DNA of 12,042 nt, from positions 1 through 12,042 of the forward strand of contig JBJCIZ010001014.1 in the NCBI GenBank assembly GCA_051294375.1. Direction: 5' to 3'. Shown here piece after piece: positions 248-12,042 of the stretch. Source of the stretch: Paraspadella gotoi (taxonomy: Eukaryota; Animalia; Chaetognatha). How positions within the stretch are numbered: position 1 is the stretch's first letter; each line of letters opens with the position of its first letter. A model generated the notes under the pieces. The model had not been told where the DNA came from. It worked only from the letters and a program-made list of their open reading frames with translations, and searched no databases. The position numbers and the translations under genes are program-made.

Positions 248-916
248 TATTGAATGGAAACGAAATCGCAAGTTTAATGCTGGCACTGTAAAGAGAGATT
301 CTTGTACGCGAGCTGCAATACTTGGCCGTCGTTATGTAAATTCACTGATCTTTGTTAGTTCGTTCGCCAACCATTTTTTAGAAAGGCTCAGTTCTGTTTA
401 AAAAAGACCGCCAGGATCGCCCCGTTAACGGAAGATATTAAGAATTTGTTCTACACTGCCCCTGAGGATTGCCTTTACTACGTAAGAAATAGAATCTGAA
501 CTTTTGAAGAATAATTTGTCTGGATATTATTCATTATGTTGTTAAAGGCCTTTTTTAACATCTTGTACATGCACTCACTACTCGCTACACTACATTCACA
601 CTATTCCGTTATCAAACATCGGGGCGTTCTTGGAGTTAGAATTTTGAGCTGAGGCGATCTGTATAACAGTCTTAAATATTAAAGACTTAAATGCCATCAA
701 CGGGAATAAAACTAATTTAATCTAAACTAACTCAACAAACAAAATATCTAATAAAAATAAAAATACGCTGAAGCAACCTGGAAATTGGGAGACTTTGGCT
801 CCCGAGGACTGGGCCTAAATCATAACATAACCTTGTTCGCGTTCTACATGTGAACCGACTGAGGAGTTTGGAGGAACGCGGGAGCCGCCGATAAGGGCCC
901 TGCCGGGTGTCAAACA
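248..916 (+). repeat. Putative LTR (only one copy seen)
   Basis: Non-coding stretch between the PPT-like tract and the gag leader. It starts TATTG (TG at 251), ends TCAAACA (916) followed by a T run, and contains AATAAA signals near 705 and 750-761. There is no second copy to confirm it, and the 3' end could instead be ~795. Confidence 0.4.
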
Positions 917-997
917 TTTTTTACTGCCATCAGGGCCGGGTCTATTGTGACCGGGCCATTAAGTCGGGCACACGGCCGAAGCAGAAGCCTACGTTAC

Positions 998-1004
998 GTA
1001 AGTT
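998..1004 (+). promoter_or_regulatory. Putative major 5' splice donor AC|GTAAGTT
   Basis: Perfect GTAAGT intron consensus starting 16 nt upstream of the AAAAATG at 1014, the position typical of a retroviral major splice donor. Confidence 0.55.
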
Positions 1005-1013
1005 ACAAAAAAA

Positions 1014-3920
1014 ATGCCATCATCGCACGGTGGCGACGATGGAACTTTGCCAATTTGAAAGGGTTTTTTAATAACACATTAAATCAAAATGAACGAGGTG
1101 TAAGAAGGTTCGTAAAAGAATTACAAAACGAACTAGACAAATTCGCAAAACTATATGACGATGCCAAAGTTCCGTTGGAGGTTCAGGCGGTTGAGCGGGT
1201 CGAATGGGCTCGCGAGACTGCCCGGACAATGCACATTGAATTGTCACGTTTTATCACTGTTAACCCTGCACTTGAAACCGATCGTGTTAAATCACTGTTA
1301 GATGATAATCTTGATTGTTCGGTACTGGGCATTTTGAGGGCACGTCCTATATTAGTTTTGGGAGCTGAGAACGCCGCGCAAGTTGACAAGATAGTTGAGG
1401 TTTCTGATGAGGAATTTGAGGAATCCGTCCGCACGGGCAGCGCGTCGTTCGTTTCCGCGTCCCCACAAAATCCTCCTCCTATTCTCAGCATCCATCGTCG
1501 AGATCATGAGAAGTCGCGCGTCGAGCCAAGGTCTGCGACGGGAATCTCCGTCAGATCGTCGCAAAAAAATAGAACCACGGTAACGTCATCTCAATTGTCT
1601 CGCGAGAAGATCCGCCAAGAGTTGGTAAATGAGCTGGTAAAGTGTTTGGAAGAGAGGATAGCGTTAGAGAGGCAGAAAGAGCAAATGGATGTAGAACGTG
1701 AAAAGGAGAGAGCGAAACGAGAGGGGAGAAACGAGGACGAGCTTGAAGCAAAATTAAAAGAAATTCGAAAGGGAACGAATGAAAGAATAATGAAGGCGGA
1801 GGAAAGGCATAGAGAATGGGTGATAGAATACAAACAAAAAAACAAGGAAAGAAAGGAGAGAGCAGAGANNNNNNNNNNAGGAAAGAGAGAAAGCAATAGA
1901 ATTCGAATTTCAACAAAAGGCTATTGAAAAGAAGGAAAAAGCGGTGAAAGAGAGATTATCCAGAATTAGTGGAGACAGCTCTGAAGAAGACCTGTATTCT
2001 TGTAGATCGGACGGCGGTCGTACAAAGGCGTCGCGTCGGAGCGTCGCGAGTCGCCGGAGCGGACGTCACGTTGAGGAACGCCCGATCGTCGAACGTCACG
2101 CCGAGGATCGCCCGATCGCAGAACGCCATGTCGAGGAGCGCCCGATCGCAGCTCCACGCGCCGAGGAATCTTCGCCGGAAACGACGGTGCCCAAATCGAT
2201 CATTACTACGGTGAGGGGAGGAAAGGAAAGGGAGGAAAGAAAAGAGGAGGAAGATATTCTGGTCAAACTCATGAGGGACTTACTCGAGGAGAAGAGGAGA
2301 AGCCGAGAATTGACAGAACCATTGTTGCCGCCGCCGGCCGGCCCGCGTTATTATCCGCCGCCGTGCGCGGCCTCCACCGCCGCCCGTTCCGTCCGCGCCG
2401 CCGCCGTTCCGTCCGTACCGCCGCCAAATCTGTCCGTAGTCGCCGCCGTTGCCGATCGCGCCGCCGCCCGCGCGGATAGTCCCGCCGCGCCGCCCGTCGT
2501 AATAACACGCGGGTGGTACCAAGTTATTCCGCCGCCGCGAGTTGTAACGCCGCAGATCCAATCGACACCGCCGTTAGTAACGCCACACACAATGCACACT
2601 GAGTCGTCCAAATCGTCCGTGCCGCTCGTAACGCCGCCATTGTTGTCGTCGCTTGAAGTTGATCGAGTTGTTGAAGTTTCGAAGTCGCCAGTCGAATGCG
2701 CAAATTGTTCATGTCGAAGTGAGTCGCGCTGGTCACCGCCGCCCGTTGTAGAACCGCTCGAGGACAAACTGGAAAGGAAAGAGTCGATTAATCATGGCAC
2801 CACACGAGAGGAAGCTCTCACACAATTATGCATATTACAAACACAACAACAGGCGCTGAGTCTTATCAGGCAAAAACGTCCCAAGTTAAAATTTTCCGGA
2901 AAGGATCGTCGAGTAGACTTTGAGTCGCAACTTAATTTGTTTGAGTCATTGAGTAAGGTCGTTGGTGTCACAGACGAAATGCTTATGTCAGAATTGAAGG
3001 AGTACTTCGACGGAGACGCGGGCATCATAGTATCACAACATGAAGCGTCGGGAAACCACACCAAAGCTTTGAAGGAAGTCAAATTGGCGTTAGAAATCGA
3101 ATTCGGTCGAAAGAATTTTACAGCGCAACAAATGTTAGAAGAGTTGTTAAAGGGACCAAAGATTTCTGAGAAAGATTTCGCCGGATCGAGGACTTTCATA
3201 TTAGAGATGGAAAAATTTTACAAGAGGGCTGTAGAGACAAATCGCGCCGCGACATTCTCCACACGAGAAACATACATCGAGATCATATCTAAGAAACTTC
3301 CGTTCTTGGCAAATCCGGTAGCGAAAAGAATGACGAAGCATGAGTTGTCGATACTAAAAAGTGAGAATAGGAAGAAGGGAGATCTTGAGTTAAAGTTCGA
3401 TGAGTTCTTGGAGATCGTGAAGGAAGTGACGAGATCAAAGGAAACCATGGGGATCTTGATGAAACAAGGGTCGTCGTCAATCGAAAGGTCAAACGGGGTG
3501 AATAACTCCAGCGCGAGGACTTACGGAGAAATCGTAAGAAATCATGTTTCAGTTCGTGCAGCCGCAGCAACTCGAGCGACGAAGGCGACAGTCGCCGCCA
3601 ATCGAAGCTTTTCCAATCCCAATTCCGATCCTACCAATCACGCACCCAGAGGCCCAAGGCAATCAAAATGTGACTTTTGTGAAAAAGTTCACTTCACGGG
3701 AATCTGTTCTAAGTTTCTAGAGTTGACGATTGACGAAAGGGTGGGCTGGATGAAAGAGAAAGGACTGTGTCGACTTTGTTTCGGACGAGGGCACCTGGCG
3801 AGGGACTGTTCCAATCTCATGGGTTGTCAGACGTGCGGACAAAGGCACCATGCATCCATTCACAGAGAGGAGTCGAATCAGGAACAGAGTTTCTTCTTGA
3901 CTAGCAGCAGCGTAACGTGA
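1014..3920 (+). CDS. gag: Gag portion of the polyprotein (joins track ORFs 947..1927 and 1944..3920)
   Basis: The E/K/R-rich coiled coil continues across the N gap at 1869-1878 (EREKAIEFEFQQKAIEKKEKAVKERL is open from 1881). A Pro-rich linker and C-terminal knuckles follow. The start at ATG 1014 is inferred and requires one missing base near 1043. Confidence 0.85.
1869..1878. other. Assembly gap (10 N)
   Basis: N run inside a purine-rich, low-complexity part of gag. The true gap length is unknown. Confidence 0.99.
2064..2168 (+). repeat. 30-nt coding tandem repeat, ~3.5 units
   Basis: Units at 2064, 2094, 2124 and 2154 (partial) encode RHVEERPIVE / RHAEDRPIAE / RHVEERPIAA / PRAEE. Confidence 0.9.
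3669..3863 (+). other. Triple zinc-knuckle nucleocapsid domain
   Basis: CDFCEKVHFTGIC (CX2CX3HX4C), CRLCFGRGHLARDC (CX2CX4HX4C) and CQTCGQRHHASIH, the arrangement typical of BEL/Pao Gag. Confidence 0.93.
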
Positions 3921-4822
3921 CGACAGGAGCATTTCGACCGATAGTTCCAGTCGTTGTGAAAAGCGGACATAGGTCGGTCGTTACGTACGCCTTATTAGAT
4001 AGCGGCGCTACCCGTTCAGCCATGTCAATGAAATTAGCGAGAAAATTAGATTTAGCTACGTACGCAGAATATACAAATTTAACAACTTATGACAAAGTGT
4101 CAAGAACATGGAGAGATTATGGTGACATCGAATTGACGAATATAGAAAACACGTTTTCAACGGAAATAAGAAAAGTCATGGTAGGAGAGATTTTAACGAC
4201 AGAGACAGACCGACCGACTCGAAACGAAGAAATCGAGGACTATCAGTACATGAAAGGAGTTGAGTTTATCGAATTGGAAGATGACTCGGTCGAAATGATA
4301 CTCGACGCGAGATTGGCACATACTTGGGTCGGAGGTGAGACGAGAAAAGGACCTGAAGGTTATCCTGTTGCGCTGAAGACAGTGTTCGGGTGGACATTAG
4401 TAGGAGCGAGTGAAAACGAAAGCGGAGAACACATTAGTTGCTGTTCAACGACACATGAGCATGAGAAATTGGAATATTTGATAGCGTCGATGTTTCGTCA
4501 CGATTTTTTGATGAGAGGAACTGAGAGATATCCATCTGAGGTGCAGCACCCGTCGGCTGAAGACAGTTATGCTTTAGAGCAACTGGAGAACGAGATTTAT
4601 TTCAACGAAAAGACCGGTCATTACGTAGCGCCGTCACCGTGGAAAAAGGGAAGGGAGAAGACTGCCGAGTTTCTTGAAACGATTAAGGACGATGTGGTGA
4701 AGAACGCGGAAAGCAGAGCGAGGAAATTGGCGAACAAGATGCGGAAAGATCCGTTGCTGAAGGAGGGGGTGTTCCGAACGATGGAGGAGACAATCGAATT
4801 GGGCCAGCGAGAAAGGCCGTAG
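3917..4822 (+). CDS. pol: Aspartic protease and pre-RT segment of the polyprotein
   Basis: YALLDSGATRS (DSG at 3998-4006), PVALKTVFGWTLVG and GHYVAPSPWK. The frame is open from 3905 and is shifted -1 relative to gag. Confidence 0.9.
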   Translation: MTTGAFRPIVPVVVKSGHRSVVTYALLDSGATRSAMSMKLARKLDLATYAEYTNLTTYDKVSRTWRDYGDIELTNIENTFSTEIRKVMVGEILTTETDRPTRNEEIEDYQYMKGVEFIELEDDSVEMILDARLAHTWVGGETRKGPEGYPVALKTVFGWTLVGASENESGEHISCCSTTHEHEKLEYLIASMFRHDFLMRGTERYPSEVQHPSAEDSYALEQLENEIYFNEKTGHYVAPSPWKKGREKTAEFLETIKDDVVKNAESRARKLANKMRKDPLLKEGVFRTMEETIELGQRERP

Positions 4823-7800
4823 TGGAGCATCCGCCGCCGGGTCAGCCGGAGTGTTTCGCGCCGTTGCTCGTCGTCACGAGAGCGGACAAGCCGGGCAAAT
4901 TCAGAATCTGTCAAGATGCAGCATCGAAAGTGAACGGGAATGCGCTGAACGATCACTTGATTGGAGGGCCGGACAACCTCACTCCGTTAATTGGCATGTT
5001 GCTGAAGTTCCGCAGAAAAAGATATACGATTTCCGCAGACATCAAGGGGTTCTTCCATCAAGTCGAGTTACATCCAAAAGACGTAGCAGCCTTCAGATAC
5101 CACTGGTATACAGACAAATCGATGCAGACATTGGAGGTTCACGAGCCGCTGGTACACGTGTTCGGGGGAGCGGGCAGTCCGGGGGTCGCGACGTTTGTGC
5201 TGCAGTATCACGGGAAGAAGCTGAGTTTCACTGGAGAATTTTCGCCGGAGGTGATCATCGCGTTTTTCCTTAAAGTTTACGTTGACGATTATCTCGATGC
5301 GCTGGACGGCATTAAAGAAGCAAGAAAGATGCGGTTAGACATGACGGAGGCGATGAAGAAAGGCGGGTTCGAGCTTACAAAGTGGCAAGCTTCACATCCA
5401 CGAATCTTGTTAGATGATCCAGAAGGAGACGAAGAAGAGAACGAAACGGTGAACGAAGCAGTTGACGGGGGGTTGGAGGAAGAACTGGAGGATAATCTCG
5501 AGGGTTTGGCCGGGAATGCAATGCCGGAGGATCCGTCGCTCGATGAACATGATTCTAAAGTTTTAGGAACGGGATACAACTCGAAACGTGATGTTTTCTT
5601 TGTACGAGTAACAGACAAAGCAGAGAAGGAGGCGAAGACGAGAAGAGATGTCTTGAAGTTGGTCGCATCGGTTTTCGATCCGCTGGGGTTGGTGGCGCCG
5701 TTCGTATTGAAAGGGAGAAGCATATTCCAAAAGATAGTGATGGAAGGGCTAGACTGGGACGACAAGCTGCCGGAAGAGTTGTTCGAGGCGTTCGACAAGT
5801 GGCGAAAGAAGATGTGTTTTCTAAAAAGAATTAGAATTCCACGGTGGACGAGCATCTTGGGCCTTGAATGTGTGAAGACATCGTTGATCGTGTTTTGCGA
5901 CGCAAGTTACGAAGGGTATGGAGTGGCCATCTACATAAAGAAGGAAAATAAAGACGGAGAAAAAAGTCACGTGACGCTACTCTTTGCCAAAGCTCACGTA
6001 GTACCAGTAAAGATGCAAGAAAAAATTATAGTGGAGAATCAACTGGATCATGGAGACTCGATGCCAAGGCTGGAACTAAACGCGGCAAGATTGGCGGCGC
6101 AGACTCGAGACACCATGATAAGGGAAGCGGGTGAAGAATTTGATGAGATTCATATGATGACGGATTCAATCACAGTGATTCGATGGATCAAAGACTGGAA
6201 AAAACGTTTCAAAACGTATGAGAATTTTCGATTGAAAACTATCAGACTCCTCTCGAAACCAAGTGAATGGAAATATGTGCCATCCCAAGAAAACCCAGCC
6301 GATTTGACAAGCCGTGGGGTAGATGCTGATGATGCTGAAAGTTGGAAAAAGTTTCACAGAGGACCTGAATGGCTTCGCCAAAAAGAGAAAGACTGGCCGA
6401 CTACGAACGATTTAGACAGTATGAAGAAAAAGAAAGATGTAAATGTAAATATCAGCGCAATTCACGACGATAGTGAATTTAGTCCGATGGAACTTATTTT
6501 TGCTAATTCTACAAGAGAGTATCCGAAAAAAGATGATGAACATGAAAAAGAGGACTGGGTGCTGAAAGTAACTGAAAAAATAAGTGACTGGGTGAAAAAA
6601 GTGAAAAGAATAGTTTACTTTGTGAAAGCAGTGAAAGGATTGATTGAAAACAAAATTCGAAAGAAGAAAGGTGAAGCAATAGAGAGAAAAGAAATGAGAA
6701 TGACAGGAGACGAATACAAGAGAGCAGAGTTGAAACTAATCAAAGCGATCCAAAGAAAAAAATTCGAAAAAGAAATATTCGAATTAATAAAGTTGGGAGT
6801 CATGACGCCAAATTCGCACAGAGAATTGAGAAGTAGAAATTCAAGAATTGTCGCTATGAGTCCGTTCATTGACGAGGAGGGTTTGATGAGGACTGGAGGG
6901 AGGTTAGGGAACTCGAAAGGGTTATCATATGACGCTAAACATCCCATAATATTACCAAAAGATGACGAGAATATCGATTCACTGATTCGCCATGAACATA
7001 TCACATTATTCCACTCCGGTACATGCGCAACATTCCATTCATTAAGACAAAGATTTACCTTGTTGGGAGGAAGGCCAGCAGTGGAAAAGATCGTCCGCCG
7101 GTGTTTGAAATGCCAGAGAAACTTAAAGGTTCCAACGCCGCAAAAGATGGCTGAACATCCAGAATTCAGAGTAAACGAAGCAATTCCATTTGAAATAACC
7201 GGACTTGATTGTTTTGGTCCGTATCAGGTGAAACACGCCGGACGTGGGCTGAATAAAAAGAATGTAGTAATATTTACATGTCTAACTACACGAGCAGTAG
7301 CTTTCGAAATATTGAAGGATATGACATCGCAGTCAATGCTCAGCGCACTAATCAGATTTAAAAACGTTTACCCAGGTGTACGCTCATTCATCTCGGACAA
7401 CGGCACGAATCTCGTAGGAGCGAGCAACGAGATAGAGAAGCAACTACATCAACTCCAAAGCAACGAGAAAATTCATGAAGAAATCGCCGCCAAAGGAATC
7501 ACCTGGACATTTGGACCGCCAAACGCTCCACATTGGGGAGGAGCTTGGGAAAGGTTGATTCGTGAGACAAAAAAGCACATCAACGCCGTCATTCCGTCAG
7601 AGTTAGACGTCGACACATTCGCAACGATCCTAAGTGAAATATCAGGTATCATGAATCGACGCCCATTGACATTCGAATCTTCCGATCCAAAGAGTGATAT
7701 TGCATTATCACCAGCAAATTTCTTATATCCATATTTGTTTACATCGACATCACTAACCTTATTACCATACGCAGCGGCGGAAGGGGATTGCATGAGGGCG

Positions 7801-8094
7801 GCGTGGAAGCAAGTGAGGGAGGTAGCGGACTCTTTCTGGAGACGTTGGCACTCAGAGTACTTAATCTCGTTACAGGAGAGAACGAAATGGCGAAACACGG
7901 CCGAAAACTTGAAGGAAGGACAAGCAGTTCTACTCGTCGAGCCGAACGCCCCGCGGGATCAATGGAAGACGGGCAGAGTCGTCGAAGTCAAAGGAGACGG
8001 CACGATCAAGAGAGAAGCCGTCGTCCGCCTCGCCGACGGAAGAACTTTTCGACGTCACCACAACGCGCTGGTTCAACTCGAACTGGATCAGTAA
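4822..8094 (+). CDS. pol: Reverse transcriptase - RNase H - integrase segment
   Basis: RT YVDD at 5278-5289. RNaseH motifs FCDAS (D 5899), PRLEL, TDS and NPAD. Integrase HHCC at 6997-7113 and D-D-E at 7207/7396/7549, followed by the C-terminal WKTGRVVEV...VVRL domain. No internal stops in 1090 codons. Confidence 0.97.
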   Translation: MEHPPPGQPECFAPLLVVTRADKPGKFRICQDAASKVNGNALNDHLIGGPDNLTPLIGMLLKFRRKRYTISADIKGFFHQVELHPKDVAAFRYHWYTDKSMQTLEVHEPLVHVFGGAGSPGVATFVLQYHGKKLSFTGEFSPEVIIAFFLKVYVDDYLDALDGIKEARKMRLDMTEAMKKGGFELTKWQASHPRILLDDPEGDEEENETVNEAVDGGLEEELEDNLEGLAGNAMPEDPSLDEHDSKVLGTGYNSKRDVFFVRVTDKAEKEAKTRRDVLKLVASVFDPLGLVAPFVLKGRSIFQKIVMEGLDWDDKLPEELFEAFDKWRKKMCFLKRIRIPRWTSILGLECVKTSLIVFCDASYEGYGVAIYIKKENKDGEKSHVTLLFAKAHVVPVKMQEKIIVENQLDHGDSMPRLELNAARLAAQTRDTMIREAGEEFDEIHMMTDSITVIRWIKDWKKRFKTYENFRLKTIRLLSKPSEWKYVPSQENPADLTSRGVDADDAESWKKFHRGPEWLRQKEKDWPTTNDLDSMKKKKDVNVNISAIHDDSEFSPMELIFANSTREYPKKDDEHEKEDWVLKVTEKISDWVKKVKRIVYFVKAVKGLIENKIRKKKGEAIERKEMRMTGDEYKRAELKLIKAIQRKKFEKEIFELIKLGVMTPNSHRELRSRNSRIVAMSPFIDEEGLMRTGGRLGNSKGLSYDAKHPIILPKDDENIDSLIRHEHITLFHSGTCATFHSLRQRFTLLGGRPAVEKIVRRCLKCQRNLKVPTPQKMAEHPEFRVNEAIPFEITGLDCFGPYQVKHAGRGLNKKNVVIFTCLTTRAVAFEILKDMTSQSMLSALIRFKNVYPGVRSFISDNGTNLVGASNEIEKQLHQLQSNEKIHEEIAAKGITWTFGPPNAPHWGGAWERLIRETKKHINAVIPSELDVDTFATILSEISGIMNRRPLTFESSDPKSDIALSPANFLYPYLFTSTSLTLLPYAAAEGDCMRAAWKQVREVADSFWRRWHSEYLISLQERTKWRNTAENLKEGQAVLLVEPNAPRDQWKTGRVVEVKGDGTIKREAVVRLADGRTFRRHHNALVQLELDQ

Positions 8095-8271
8095 AAACAA
8101 TTTGAAAAGAAAACTTTAAATTCATGGAACAATGAAAAAACTCGGTAAAGTGAATTTGTAAAGGCAAATTGTAAACAATCATCGTAGTCAAGCAAAAAAA
8201 TAGTCAGTTAAAATTTACAAAATATCGTGATCGATCATATCGTGAATTTAGAAAGAAGCCAGCTCTCAAAA

Positions 8272-8850
8272 ATGAACATCGAACAATTCGTCAAGTCTTG
8301 TTTTCAAAAACAACTGAGAACGTCGATCGATAGATTGGTGGAAAATTTATGGGAGGAAGTAGAAGCAATTCAAAGTTGGAGCTACCCACCAGCTACAGAA
8401 ATATCGTTAATATTGGAAACAGTGAGATCAAGAAAAAGGCAGATAGCCGAATTGGCGAAAGAACTTAAGGGAATATACGTTCCACCACCCGCCAAGGAGG
8501 ACGACGAAGATACGATTTACCATAAAGTGTTCCGCATTCCAGAGGAAGAACTCGACGAAGAATCAAAAAAAATTCTAGAAATGAAAAGAAAGAGAAGGAA
8601 CGAAGTGACGGCTAAACAAAAGAAAGTTACGTTCGCCGACGACGACACCACGGTGAAGAGCGAAATCAATGACGAGACGAGACCAAAGGAGATTGACGAG
8701 GTCAACACGGTGATCAAGACGAATGACGTAATCACCCAAGAAAAAAAGGAACCAGATGAAGCAAAAGCCGTCGGCGAAGAAGAAAAGCCCAAGAGACGAG
8801 CACCGCCAAGATGTCATTTTTACTATCGAAAATTATTCATTAAAAAATAA
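8272..8850 (+). CDS. Accessory ORF A, 192 aa, unknown function, charged, with KRKRR and KKVTFAD motifs
   Basis: First ATG (AAAAATG context) of track ORF 8227..8850. It is a long open frame between AT-rich spacers. Only weak acceptor candidates precede it (AATTTAG 8245-8251, CCAG ending 8262). Confidence 0.75.
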   Translation: MNIEQFVKSCFQKQLRTSIDRLVENLWEEVEAIQSWSYPPATEISLILETVRSRKRQIAELAKELKGIYVPPPAKEDDEDTIYHKVFRIPEEELDEESKKILEMKRKRRNEVTAKQKKVTFADDDTTVKSEINDETRPKEIDEVNTVIKTNDVITQEKKEPDEAKAVGEEEKPKRRAPPRCHFYYRKLFIKK

Positions 8851-8958
8851 AGTCATAAAGACTTCAAACTCGTAAACGTCGAACTGTTATAGCCGGAGAG
8901 AAACTTATTGAATAGTGAATTGGTCGAATTTTTATTATTTGAATTGTTTTCAGTTGCC

Positions 8959-9330
8959 ATGGATACTCCAAACGCCTTCGTTGACGAATGGAACAAAATT
9001 GAAAAATCTTGGGATGATCTCGAGAAAGAAGAACAAAGCGAAAAAAGGAGAAGGAAAATATTCGAACTGATATTACAGGAAAAAGAATTAAAGCAAAAGG
9101 AAAAAGAAGCTGAGCAATTGACAGAAGAAAAAGCCGATCCGAACAAAGCAGTTCTCCAATTAAAGCAAGAACTTGCCGATCTGAACCTGAGAAAAAACTT
9201 GATCGCTACAAAAAAATTATCAAACCCGGAAAAAATCACAACGTTCACAATGATGGAGAAGAGAACTGAGAAGAGACTCGAGATAATCTCTGGAAAATTG
9301 TCGACGTTAGAACCGAAAGAAACTGAATGA
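8959..9330 (+). CDS. Accessory ORF B, 123 aa, coiled-coil-like, paralogue of ORF C
   Basis: ATG lies 5 nt after TTTTCAG (8947-8953). Aligns by eye with ORF C. Confidence 0.75.
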   Translation: MDTPNAFVDEWNKIEKSWDDLEKEEQSEKRRRKIFELILQEKELKQKEKEAEQLTEEKADPNKAVLQLKQELADLNLRKNLIATKKLSNPEKITTFTMMEKRTEKRLEIISGKLSTLEPKETE

Positions 9331-9421
9331 AAAAAAAGAAAACTATTTGTGATAGTTAATAAAAGAACTGATAATTCATTATTGAATTTGTTTAAAGTTT
9401 AAGTTATAGTTTCAGTTCCTA

Positions 9422-9838
9422 ATGGATCTGGCAACCGGTTTCAAAAACAAACGAAGCAAATTAAATGAACAATGGAAAAAAGGAGAAAAACTTTGGGCAA
9501 ATGGAGACTACCAAGAATCAATTAATGTGGTAGAAAAACTCATACTTCCAGAGGTTGAACTTCAAGAAGAGGAAAAAAGGCAAAAAGAAACCGACCAAGA
9601 AAACAAAGAACCTGAAGCCGCATTAGAAAGGTGCAAAAAAATGAAAGAAAACTTAAAAAAGAGAAAAGAAGAGGGAACCTACCTATACGAGTTAGAAAAA
9701 AACTTTGCAGTGTCAAAAATTTATACCGAAATCTTGACAAGAACGGAAACGGAAGAAAAAGAGATCGACAAAAAGATCACAAATCTCGAGAGAAAAATTA
9801 GAATGACGTCATTACGAAAAAGAGTCTCAAAAAATTAA
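9422..9838 (+). CDS. Accessory ORF C, 138 aa, coiled-coil-like, paralogue of ORF B
   Basis: ATG lies 6 nt after TTTCAG (9410-9415). Aligns by eye with ORF B. Confidence 0.78.
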   Translation: MDLATGFKNKRSKLNEQWKKGEKLWANGDYQESINVVEKLILPEVELQEEEKRQKETDQENKEPEAALERCKKMKENLKKRKEEGTYLYELEKNFAVSKIYTEILTRTETEEKEIDKKITNLERKIRMTSLRKRVSKN

Positions 9839-9909
9839 CATTAAAAAATGAAATGATTATATCGAATAAATTTTTTCTCAGAAAGGTAGCTGAATTCCGG
9901 AAAGAAAGA

Positions 9910-10185
9910 ATGAACTGGTGCTTGAGCACAGATTGCAGACCCCAATCGGTGGAAGATGCAATGAGAAAATTAATTTCTTACGAAAATTATTATCTGGAAA
10001 AACGAGAGAACGAAAAAGACGGAATAAAAATACAAAAACTGGAAGCTGAATTCAAAGAGCAAAAGAATTACTTTGAGAGATGGATCGAAGTTCGCTACCA
10101 GCAAAATAATGTGTTCTCAAACTTTCAGAAAGAAATGAGAGCTCATATTAAAGGAAGAAAACACCAAAACAGAACAGACAATTAA
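9910..10185 (+). CDS. Accessory ORF D, ~91 aa (start uncertain), paralogue of ORF E
   Basis: An acceptor-like TTTTTTCTCAG at 9871-9881 lies within track ORF 9853..10185, and the next ATG is at 9910. Aligns with ORF E. Confidence 0.65.
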   Translation: MNWCLSTDCRPQSVEDAMRKLISYENYYLEKRENEKDGIKIQKLEAEFKEQKNYFERWIEVRYQQNNVFSNFQKEMRAHIKGRKHQNRTDN

Positions 10186-10233
10186 TCGAAATTTACATAT
10201 AATGTTTTGTTTATTTAAGATATTTCAGTAACC

Positions 10234-10500
10234 ATGTCATTCGAACTTACTAAAAATTTTCGCGAACGAGAAAAAGCCAAAGCCGCAGCAGAAACGCCAA
10301 GCAACCTTGAGGACACGCTGGAGAAGCTGGAGATGAATGAGAAGGAATTCGAGTCATTGTATTTCGATTATATAGCGCTAGGCTGTCCGATGGTAAAGGT
10401 GTCAGAAACATATATCTGGAGAATCGCTTACCTGAAAAGATGGGCCGACTTAATGGAAGCTGAGGGAAAAGTCTTCGCCGAAGATATTCAACCACACTAA
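10234..10500 (+). CDS. Accessory ORF E, 88 aa, paralogue of ORF D
   Basis: ATG (ACCATG) lies 5 nt after ATTTCAG (10222-10228). Aligns with ORF D. Confidence 0.72.
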   Translation: MSFELTKNFREREKAKAAAETPSNLEDTLEKLEMNEKEFESLYFDYIALGCPMVKVSETYIWRIAYLKRWADLMEAEGKVFAEDIQPH

Positions 10501-10599
10501 AAAACTGATCGAGATGTGTCGACGATCCAAAATTACTTATACATTCGTTATTCTTTGCATTCTTGCTTTCTTCGTTTACATTTAGTATATTCAGTCAGA

Positions 10600-10845
10600 A
10601 TGGACATTTCACAGCTAGCGGAAAAGCAGAGAGATCACTTGGCAAGTCGTAAAAGCGTCTCCTGGTTCGGCATCCTTCCCTTCGGATCTTGCTTAGCGCA
10701 AGATCTGTCGACCATCACAACGTCTGTTCGCACGCCGACCGCCGGCTACCCGCTTCCGCCGGCTGCCTTTTATTCCAGGCTCTCTCGAACATATGGCGTC
10801 GCACCCACTGACTACTGTTTCCCGTTGTGCTGCGAACAAAACTAA
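10600..10845 (+). CDS. Possible accessory ORF F, 81 aa (may be the start of a longer frameshifted ORF)
   Basis: ATG lies 5 nt after ATTCAG (10589-10594), which follows a T-rich spacer. Composition changes to higher GC at this point. Confidence 0.4.
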   Translation: MDISQLAEKQRDHLASRKSVSWFGILPFGSCLAQDLSTITTSVRTPTAGYPLPPAAFYSRLSRTYGVAPTDYCFPLCCEQN

Positions 10846-11113
10846 GTCTCGAAACCATCGGTTCGTGCCGCAAGCACTTAGAGCCCAACAAATTTTATGG
10901 GCCACTCAGAGAAGACTCGATATTGAAGAGTCCACTCCGGGTGACTGGACAGCGGACAATGTCGGATTAATTTCTTGTTGGAGCGCGGTCAGAAGCGAGG
11001 GAGGCGCAATGTCTCCCCACGAGAACGGAACACTCTGCTATCCGCGAGCGCCGTGCTGCAGGCGCACGTTGCAAAATCTCTCTCTACAAACGGAGATCTA
11101 TGAAGTCGGCTAA
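10793..11113 (+). CDS. Possible ORF G, 106 aa, or a frameshifted continuation of ORF F
   Basis: Overlaps ORF F in another frame. TTTTATTCCAG (10768-10778) lies 14 nt before its ATG. No recognisable domain. Confidence 0.25.
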   Translation: MASHPLTTVSRCAANKTKSRNHRFVPQALRAQQILWATQRRLDIEESTPGDWTADNVGLISCWSAVRSEGGAMSPHENGTLCYPRAPCCRRTLQNLSLQTEIYEVG

Positions 11114-12042
11114 CGAGATGTCTCCGTGAGCGCACTTCTCAGAAGCGCTTACAATCGTCAGGCGGCTTATCAGGCATCGCAATCATGCTGAGCAAATGGA
11201 AAATCTCATCCGATATAACAATGTGCCTAGCTCCTGCCAGTCGGCGCGATATGGCAGCTCCCACAAGTGAACGCTCTTCACATTGATCCAGCAGTGCGTA
11301 GTATCTGCGAGTACGATTCCCATTACTATGTGGACCGATTAAGATTGAATTGATGTATACAGCTATTTTTCAGAAACAATGTTATTGTTAATCGAACTAA
11401 ATTCCTGTAAATGAATACTAAAGCAGAACATTAAATAATTTTTGAATTCGCTGAATGTTTGAACAATTAGGTGATATACTCGTAGGCATACAATAGACAG
11501 TGATAGCATATCATTGTGAAATCGGATTTTAACCCAATGTAAGTCTTTACTCTGCGCAGCATGAACCTTCCCTCACTTGCTGCCTGCCAGCATCTTCGTT
11601 CTCTGGATCGCGGTTGCTCGTTTATTCAGGAGAAGCTCTTTCTCCCGCCGGGCTGGAACCACCTTATGTAATTAGTATATTAAGTTTTAAAGTTTAGGCT
11701 ATTACAATTTTTATTTAACGTTAGAGTTAACGCTTCGAGTTACAAGTCAGACTTAAATTACTCTGATTAATTTCCGTATCGCACGTAATTTTCAGTACGT
11801 CTGTTTGTGTTTTTTAATTTTTTTATCGCCTCGTAGCATTTCTTCACAAGAATTTTCATATTTTAAGGGACGGGATTTCTGTTTTAATCTACTGATCGAT
11901 TTTTGACGTTTCGTAACTTGTCGTTGCATGGATGGACTATTTGGGACGATCTTCGATCCTACTCGAATTCCGTAACGGGCACTTCTTTTACCGGCAAATA
12001 GTGCCGGAATGCGGACGCCGAACTATCACACGCGCGCTGAAG

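What the first reader, a model, noticed from the sequence alone, without database searches (positions are those of the whole stretch)
8947..11381. Accessory ORFs are headed by a splice acceptor a fixed 5-6 nt before the ATG
Seen: TTTTCAG-ttgcc-ATG (8959), TTTCAG-ttccta-ATG (9422), ATTTCAG-taacc-ATG (10234), ATTCAG-tcaga-ATG (10600) and TTTTTCAG-aaaca-ATG (11379, an 11-aa mini ORF), plus TTTTTTCTCAG at 9881 for ORF D. Each full-size ORF ends in its own stop codon, so these are not exons of a single protein. Known: TTTCAG is the 3' splice and SL trans-splice consensus of nematodes and fits other AT-rich invertebrates, and trans-splice sites often lie just before the ATG. Inference: each ORF is made into a separate monocistronic mRNA from one precursor.
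Basis: partly seen in the sequence, partly recalled or inferred. Interest (0 to 1): 0.88.

Follow-up and report, generated by a model that had tools for sequence, protein, structure and literature searches.

The report
Retrotransposon with splice-headed accessory genes
A BEL/Pao jumping element of an unidentified animal carries a row of small extra genes, four of six with a splice-acceptor-like signal 5-6 bases before the start codon, and it likely makes one messenger per gene by splicing a shared leader onto each, as complex retroviruses do, although no RNA data were available to show it.

Summary
The window is a BEL/Pao LTR retrotransposon whose Pol falls in a long-stemmed clade known only from unnamed metagenome proteins. 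Six ORFs of 81-192 aa follow pol; none that was searched has a homologue outside the window. TTCAG-N5-6-ATG is real: 6 hits against 0.115 expected, none in gag-pol or on the minus strand. It heads 4 of the 6 ORFs. Corrections: ORF 8272 lacks it; ORF C's site is 28 nt from its ATG; one hit lies inside ORF C; ORFs A and B are paralogues; one run's contig leaves the window's sequence at 10626, so most of ORF E and the 11379 mini ORF may not belong to the shared element. New evidence: a GTAAGT donor sits 16 nt before the likely gag start, and two sister variants keep it as GTGAGT while flanks change. Best reading (0.5): alternative cis-splicing of one leader onto each acceptor. Rivals: SL trans-splicing (0.2), internal TCAGT-type promoters (0.17), a functionless relic (0.08). 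No RNA run could be tested, the host is unknown, and conservation of the acceptors in other elements is untested.

The parts
287..997 (+). Possible 5' LTR and untranslated leader (limits uncertain; no second LTR in the window)
   Evidence: AATAAA at 705, 750, 756; only one ATG between 790 and 997, followed at once by a stop; no LTR pair found. Inferred.
998..1003 (+). Candidate major 5' splice donor GTAAGT, 16 nt before the likely gag ATG
   Evidence: Only GTRAGT between 780 and 1013; 764 of 50000 shuffles put one in the last 36 nt of the leader; sister variants read GTGAGT (tables 3 and 7)
1014..3920 (+). gag region (start at 1014 inferred; this copy has frame breaks and an N gap); three Cys/His clusters near the end
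   Evidence: ORFs; ATG list; one relative P0217, E 1.6e-47
3917..8094 (+). pol region of BEL/Pao type: protease, RT, RNase H, integrase; frame break near 4.8 kb in this copy
   Evidence: Pfam Peptidase_A17 2.8e-35, DUF5641 1.1e-21, Integrase_H2C2 2.6e-8, RVT_1 9.3e-5 below its cut-off; protease motif read
8272..8850 (+). Accessory ORF 0, 192 aa, no TTCAG; weaker TTTAG 20 nt upstream, TCAGTT 66 nt upstream
   Evidence: pol-like codon bias
8947..8953 (+). Acceptor-like site A (TTTTCAG), 5 nt before ATG
8959..9330 (+). Accessory ORF A, 123 aa, K/E-rich, predicted three long helices; paralogue of B
9410..9415 (+). Acceptor-like site B (TTTCAG), 6 nt before ATG
9422..9838 (+). Accessory ORF B, 138 aa, K/E-rich; paralogue of A
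9871..9881 (+). Acceptor-like site C (TTTTTTCTCAG), 28 nt before ATG 9910
9910..10185 (+). Accessory ORF C, 91 aa from 9910 (frame open from ATG 9853, 110 aa); holds an extra TTTCAG-N6-ATG at 10123-10137
10222..10228 (+). Acceptor-like site D (ATTTCAG), 5 nt before ATG
10234..10500 (+). Accessory ORF D, 88 aa, predicted helical (mean pLDDT 65)
10589..10594 (+). Acceptor-like site E (ATTCAG) after a pyrimidine-rich tract, 5 nt before ATG
10600..10845 (+). ORF E, 81 aa; only about the first 9 codons are shared with the X1 contig, the rest lacks coding-like bias
   Evidence: table 8
11366..11414 (+). TTTTTCAG plus 11-aa mini ORF; lies beyond the point where the X1 contig departs, membership doubtful

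Best explanation
This BEL/Pao retrotransposon carries a cassette of short accessory ORFs after pol and likely expresses them by alternative cis-splicing, in which a likely major donor at 997/998, just before gag, would be joined to one of several acceptor-like sites that lie a few bases before each ORF's ATG. Each spliced RNA would carry the element's own ATG-poor leader, so the first usable start codon is that of the chosen ORF (computed). The unspliced RNA would serve as genome and gag-pol message. Internal AATAAA signals may end some messages after one ORF (untested). Shown: the motifs, their statistics and the donor's retention in sister variants. Inferred: every splice. The proteins lack a membrane span, so they are probably not an envelope; A and B are predicted long helices, and a regulatory or assembly role is a guess.
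For: Motif coupled to ATG far above chance and confined to the 3' cassette. T- or pyrimidine-rich tracts on an otherwise A-rich strand precede the four sites: 4 of the top 9 of 261 AGs by upstream T count, three of them in the top 4; percentiles 0.96-0.99. GTAAGT 16 nt before the likely gag start (chance 764 of 50000). The commoner sister type reads GTGAGT with two changes just upstream (table 3, three runs). One more diverged X7 contig also keeps GTGAGT there with different flanks (table 7). After each predicted join the first ATG opening more than one codon is the ORF's own. 0 of 13 ORFs of 80 aa or more after pol in 19 other BEL/Pao loci carry such a site. Precedent: Oikopleura Tor3a env spliced from a donor near the start of gag (PMC4402516, section read); EIAV spliced RNAs share one donor (PMC9517694, passages).
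Against: No splice junction was observed. GTRAGT is no commoner than chance in the window as a whole (7 against 7.46), and the donor could serve a single product such as pol or ORF 0. The base after AG is T at all four sites, which is not the usual acceptor preference (recalled) and fits an initiator. Cis-splicing does not itself require a fixed 5-6 nt spacing. ORF 0 lacks the motif and one hit lies inside ORF C. A and B are paralogues. The implied introns are about 8-9.6 kb. Conservation of the acceptors in other elements could not be tested.
Confidence: 0.5

Rival explanations
1. The cassette is an operon resolved by the host's spliced-leader trans-splicing: each TTCAG takes the SL, and cleavage at upstream AATAAA signals frees the preceding message.
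For: Acceptors very close to the ATG. Stop-to-AG distances of 43-103 nt for A-E are of the order of intercistronic distances in nematodes (about 110 bp) and Oikopleura (60 bp or less; PMC7986045, passages). AATAAA before A, B and C. Cer1 of C. elegans takes SL1 on its spliced RNA (PMC3315495, passages).
Against: A conserved 5' donor lies upstream in the same transcript, so the acceptors are not unpaired. AATAAA in 3 of 5 gaps is not significant (P about 0.08). The host is unidentified and not known to have SL trans-splicing.
Confidence: 0.2
2. The motif is a transcription initiator, not an acceptor: each ORF has a small internal promoter starting at the A of TCAGT and giving 7-8 nt 5' UTRs.
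For: All four ORF-heading sites read TCAGT, which I recall as the arthropod initiator consensus. ORF 0 has TCAGTT 66 nt upstream without a T-rich tract. A fixed distance to ATG follows naturally. Tor3b/4b env is made from an internal promoter (PMC4402516).
Against: A TATA-like word 15-40 nt upstream at 1 of 4 sites, plus a weak TTTAAA at B. The pyrimidine tracts are strand-specific, as expected of an RNA signal. 7-8 nt UTRs are short for scanning (established knowledge). ORF C has no TCAGT. It leaves the conserved donor unexplained.
Confidence: 0.17
3. The shared head is a relic of tandem duplication of one small gene, with no present splicing role.
For: A and B are paralogues; three ORFs begin ATG-GA(T/C).
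Against: No other ORF pair among 0, A-E reaches z 3. The 30 nt upstream of the sites are not similar between sites (177-986 of 1000 shuffles), so only the core motif survived while all else diverged, which implies selection.
Confidence: 0.08

Closest known systems
Belpaoviridae (BEL/Pao LTR retrotransposons), ICTV profile PMC8742986 (whole text read)
   Same: Pao-type Pol domains, gag before pol, integrase last
   Different: [quoted passage not shown] Pol lies in a separate long-stemmed clade of 33 rows, support 100 in a quick tree.
Oikopleura Tor3a and Tor3b/4b gypsy-type elements, PMC4402516 (section 18 and passages read)
   Same: A downstream ORF is expressed by splicing from a donor near the start of gag (Tor3a) or from an internal promoter (Tor3b/4b): two of my three mechanisms
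   Different: Gypsy lineage, one env ORF, non-canonical GA donor
Lentiviruses such as EIAV and HIV-1, PMC9517694 (passages)
   Same: Several small accessory proteins made from spliced RNAs that share one 5' donor
   Different: Retroviridae; overlapping and multi-exon accessory genes, Rev/RRE control and an envelope. Here the ORFs are tandem, non-overlapping and single-exon, and no splice is shown.
C. elegans Cer1, PMC3315495 (passages)
   Same: An LTR retrotransposon that uses host splice sites, including SL1 trans-splicing, for an accessory protein and must skip them for the genomic RNA
   Different: Gypsy type; one multi-exon accessory protein sharing gag sequence, not an array after pol
Bdelloid rotifer LTR elements with ORF3 (PMC5408684, passages) and planarian Burro elements with accessory ORFs (PMC6431247, passages)
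   Same: Extra non-envelope ORFs in invertebrate LTR elements; ORF3s are said typically to come from spliced messages
   Different: Not BEL/Pao; the passages read describe no acceptor-per-ORF array

Membership tests
Belpaoviridae (BEL/Pao) | Pao-type Pol with order protease, RT, RNase H, integrase | tested here: met
   Pfam Peptidase_A17, DUF5641, Integrase_H2C2 above cut-off, RVT_1 below; 100 or more of 105 homologues carry PF05380; protease motif upstream
Belpaoviridae (BEL/Pao) | Two flanking LTRs | tested here: inconclusive
   No direct-repeat pair in the window; the 3' end may lie outside it or be replaced after 10626
Belpaoviridae (BEL/Pao) | Primer-binding site for tRNA-Arg or tRNA-Gly | not testable with these tools
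   No host genome or tRNA set held; a TGG-led stretch near 797 is only a candidate
Belpaoviridae (BEL/Pao) | Polypurine tract before the 3' LTR | tested here: inconclusive
   No purine run of 12 or more after 10185; 3' end uncertain
Belpaoviridae (BEL/Pao) | One to three genes, 4.2-10 kb (descriptive range in the ICTV profile) | tested here: not met
   gag, pol and five or six further ORFs over more than 10 kb; this is the variant feature, so it is filed as BEL/Pao by Pol only
Complex-retrovirus-type alternative splicing (works like) | One 5' donor upstream of gag | tested here: met
   Sequence only: GTAAGT at 998, GTGAGT in two sister variants
Complex-retrovirus-type alternative splicing (works like) | An acceptor before each accessory ORF | tested here: inconclusive
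   4 of 6 with TTCAG at 5-6 nt, 1 with CTCAG at 28 nt, 1 without
Complex-retrovirus-type alternative splicing (works like) | Junctions seen in RNA | not testable with these tools
   No holder on record as RNA
Complex-retrovirus-type alternative splicing (works like) | Rev-like export factor for unspliced RNA | not tested
   No function could be assigned to any accessory ORF
SL-resolved operon | Host has a spliced-leader RNA and SL reads at the acceptors | not testable with these tools
   Host unidentified; no genome; no Rfam match in the window
SL-resolved operon | Unpaired acceptors (no upstream donor) | tested here: not met
   Consensus donors at 998 and 2719 lie upstream on the same strand
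SL-resolved operon | Short intercistronic gaps with poly(A) signals | tested here: inconclusive
   Stop-to-AG 43-103 nt; AATAAA in 3 of 5, P about 0.08
Internal initiator promoters | TCAGT core with TATA about 30 nt upstream | tested here: inconclusive
   TCAGT at 4 of 4; TATAA at 1 of 4; consensus recalled

The most novel reading that the evidence does not exclude
A BEL/Pao retrotransposon of an undescribed clade has built its own operon: five or six accessory genes on the genomic RNA, cut into capped single-gene messages by the host's spliced-leader trans-splicing, with a retroviral-type donor competing for the same acceptors.
Probability: 0.2. Interest if true: 0.8.

Novelty: new variant of a known kind. 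Interest (0 to 1): 0.55.

Why it matters
BEL/Pao elements are described as simple gag-pol(-env) elements whose expression is little studied (PMC8742986). A member with five or six orphan accessory genes, each seemingly addressed by its own splice site, would mean that the complex-retrovirus way of expression also arose in this family. Unchecked notes from this scan report the same layout in gypsy elements of worms, so it may be a recurring solution. The anatomy gives base-exact predictions that one long-read RNA run can decide between cis-splicing, SL trans-splicing and internal promoters. The Pol clade itself has no named member in my searches.

Tried and rejected
No RNA holder listed. Run X7, a guessed RNA run, shows the same depth pattern as the DNA runs and its contigs cross sites A, B and D without a joint; none of the 10 joints listed ends at a predicted acceptor. 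This is no evidence either way. X10 laid nothing. No cover of 10855-11256 in any of the 4 runs laid; a hole proves nothing by itself. A comparison of more diverged sister cassettes at lower likeness was not obtained, so acceptor conservation stays open. No whole genome held. DNA of the close Pol clade was not found: viral contigs gave 1 distant locus in 4 scans, genome contigs none in 2, and the metagenome scan (16 of 64 parts read, best 80 of 554 kept) gave only loci at 28-38% identity. Homologues of accessory ORFs: none for the A/B profile among 1.84 billion representatives, none for C, no Pfam hit above cut-off for the six, no PHROG hit, no usable Atlas hit for D or ORF 0, no fold match at E 0.001 for D or A, one weak PDB row at E 0.066. 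ORFs 0, D and E were not searched against the large protein collections. Rejected: exons of one protein (own stops, mixed phases); envelope or FAST-like fusogen (no membrane span; compare 10.1101/2025.03.14.642691, passages); tRNA or Rfam RNA in the window. Literature searches turned up no report of an acceptor-per-ORF array in a BEL/Pao element. The library is open-access only and the term 'bel pao' may miss the slash spelling. PMC3118150, PMC2774666, PMC7084138, PMC9094657, PMC6389100 and PMC3383448 were searched by passages and added nothing decisive. I recall an extra 3' gene in the C. elegans BEL-type element Cer7 from a 1999 paper that is not held; this could lower the novelty. No supplements were opened.
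Full report
What the window is. The + strand holds a BEL/Pao LTR retrotransposon. The long ORF 4996-8094 matches Pfam Peptidase_A17 (E 2.8e-35), DUF5641 (1.1e-21) and Integrase_H2C2 (2.6e-8), with a weak RVT_1 match below its cut-off. A protease motif lies just after 3920 and a gag region with three Cys/His clusters precedes it. This copy has frame breaks near 1.05, 3.9 and 4.8 kb and an N gap at about 1870. No LTR pair is in the window. The nearest Pol relatives, at about 33-44% identity, are unnamed proteins from metagenome assemblies; the best named hit is a crinoid protein at 32%. In a quick tree of 58 rows, none left out, the window groups with 32 of these unnamed proteins on a long stem with support 100 (the careful search did not finish and there is no outgroup). 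The host is unknown and no genome is held.

The observation. Six ORFs follow pol: 8272 (192 aa, ORF 0), 8959 (A, 123), 9422 (B, 138), 9853 or 9910 (C, 110 or 91), 10234 (D, 88) and 10600 (E, 81). TTCAG-N5-6-ATG occurs 6 times in 8095-11420 against 0.115 in shuffles (0 of 2000) and 6 times in the window against 0.88 (0 of 200). It stands before 5 of 39 ATGs in 8065-10626, 0 of 124 ATGs upstream and 0 of 161 on the minus strand. The 30 nt before sites A, B, D and E are T-rich, at percentiles 0.96-0.99 of the region. As a control, 19 of 80 other BEL/Pao loci have 2 kb or more after pol; they hold 13 ORFs of 80 aa or more, and none has TTYAG within 12 nt of its ATG. These loci are not of the close clade.

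Only 4 of 6 ORFs have the fixed spacing. ORF 0 has no TTCAG, and site C is 28 nt from ATG 9910. A further hit at 10124-10137 lies inside ORF C. A and B are paralogues (30% identity; z 5.8); no other pair among the accessory ORFs is. A contig of run X1 matches 9883-10626 and then continues for 168 unlike letters (table 8), and ORF E lacks the codon bias shared by pol, 0, A, B and D. Site E and its first codons therefore belong to the shared element, while the rest of E and the 11379 mini ORF may not. Counting A and B once and using a loose pattern still leaves about 0.005 (my arithmetic).

The missing half: a donor. GTAAGT at 998-1003 lies 16 nt before ATG 1014, the likely gag start (inferred, since this copy breaks frame soon after). 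Such a hexamer falls in the last 36 nt of a shuffled leader in 764 of 50000 trials, though it is not enriched in the window overall (7 against 7.46). In runs X7, X5 and X1 the commoner sister type differs at 994, 995 and 1000, which leaves GTGAGT (table 3). One more diverged X7 contig has different flanks and again GTGAGT next to position 1007 (table 7; a single contig). The one change inside the hexamer is at the position that the donor consensus leaves free between A and G (established knowledge). From 790 to 997 the only ATG is followed at once by a stop, so after any predicted join the first ATG opening more than one codon is that of the ORF behind the acceptor.

Mechanism. The best reading (0.5) is alternative cis-splicing of one leader onto several acceptors, with the unspliced RNA as genome. 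Tor3a elements of Oikopleura splice env from a donor near the start of gag (PMC4402516, section read), and EIAV's spliced RNAs share one donor (PMC9517694, passages). SL trans-splicing (0.2) fits the short AG-to-ATG distance and the 43-103 nt gaps (compare PMC7986045, passages), and Cer1 takes SL1 (PMC3315495, passages). Against it, the acceptors have an upstream donor, AATAAA in 3 of 5 gaps is not significant (P about 0.08) and the host's use of SL is unknown. Internal promoters (0.17) are suggested because all four sites read TCAGT, recalled as an arthropod initiator, and Tor3b/4b use an internal promoter; a TATA-like word at the expected distance is clear at only 1 of 4. A functionless relic of duplication (0.08) is weakened because the tracts upstream of the sites are not alike. 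Cis- and trans-splicing could also coexist. No step has been seen in RNA.

The proteins. None has a membrane span (highest hydropathy 0.96), so this is not an env. A is predicted as three long helices (pLDDT 82, pTM 0.43, two-sequence alignment) and D as helical with low confidence. Searches found no relatives or informative folds. A role in RNA export, particle assembly or host interference is a guess by analogy.

What is known and what is new. The ICTV profile lists one to three genes for the family (PMC8742986, whole text). Ten literature searches found no acceptor-per-ORF array in a BEL/Pao element, within an open-access library. A recalled 1999 report of an extra gene in C. elegans Cer7 could not be read. 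Four earlier notes of this scan describe the same layout in gypsy elements of worms; they are unchecked AI notes, came after I had found the donor, and are leads only. The mechanism is thus of a known kind, and its occurrence in this family and clade appears new.

Verdict. The pattern is real but less uniform than stated. The element most likely expresses its accessory ORFs from separate messages, with cis-splicing from the donor at 998 the best-supported route. New variant of a known kind; interest 0.55, limited by the absence of RNA evidence, of a named host and of a conservation test for the acceptors.

Noticed in passing
window 3917-3920: The gag stop and a GTG in the protease frame overlap as GTGA, and the close-clade Pol proteins listed mostly start at or near the protease, so gag and pol are separate ORFs in this clade. 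How pol is made (frameshift, reinitiation or splicing to the pyrimidine-rich AG near 3904) is open.
   Followed up: partly
window 8443-10854 against 4021-8040: At 90% likeness the cassette has about a fifth to a tenth of the depth of pol in three runs, so most sister copies seem to carry a different or much more diverged 3' region; summed contig depth is not a copy number.
   Followed up: partly
window 10627-12042: More GC-rich DNA without the element's A skew; short patches (10637-10669, 11419-11442, from 11663) match other contigs in X1 and X7, which suggests a different repeat family or a diverged cassette.
   Followed up: partly
P0001-P0032, P0034: An unnamed BEL/Pao clade from metagenome assemblies, clusters of up to 150 members, long stem of 0.75 with support 100 in a quick, midpoint-rooted tree. 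One member is labelled as from a SAR324 bacterial bin, probably contamination, which hints at a marine host.
   Followed up: partly
window 2063-2167 and 2375-2490: Proline- and arginine-rich tandem repeats (30-nt period) in the gag region, variable among copies.
   Followed up: no
window 2719-2724: A second consensus donor GTGAGT inside gag.
   Followed up: no
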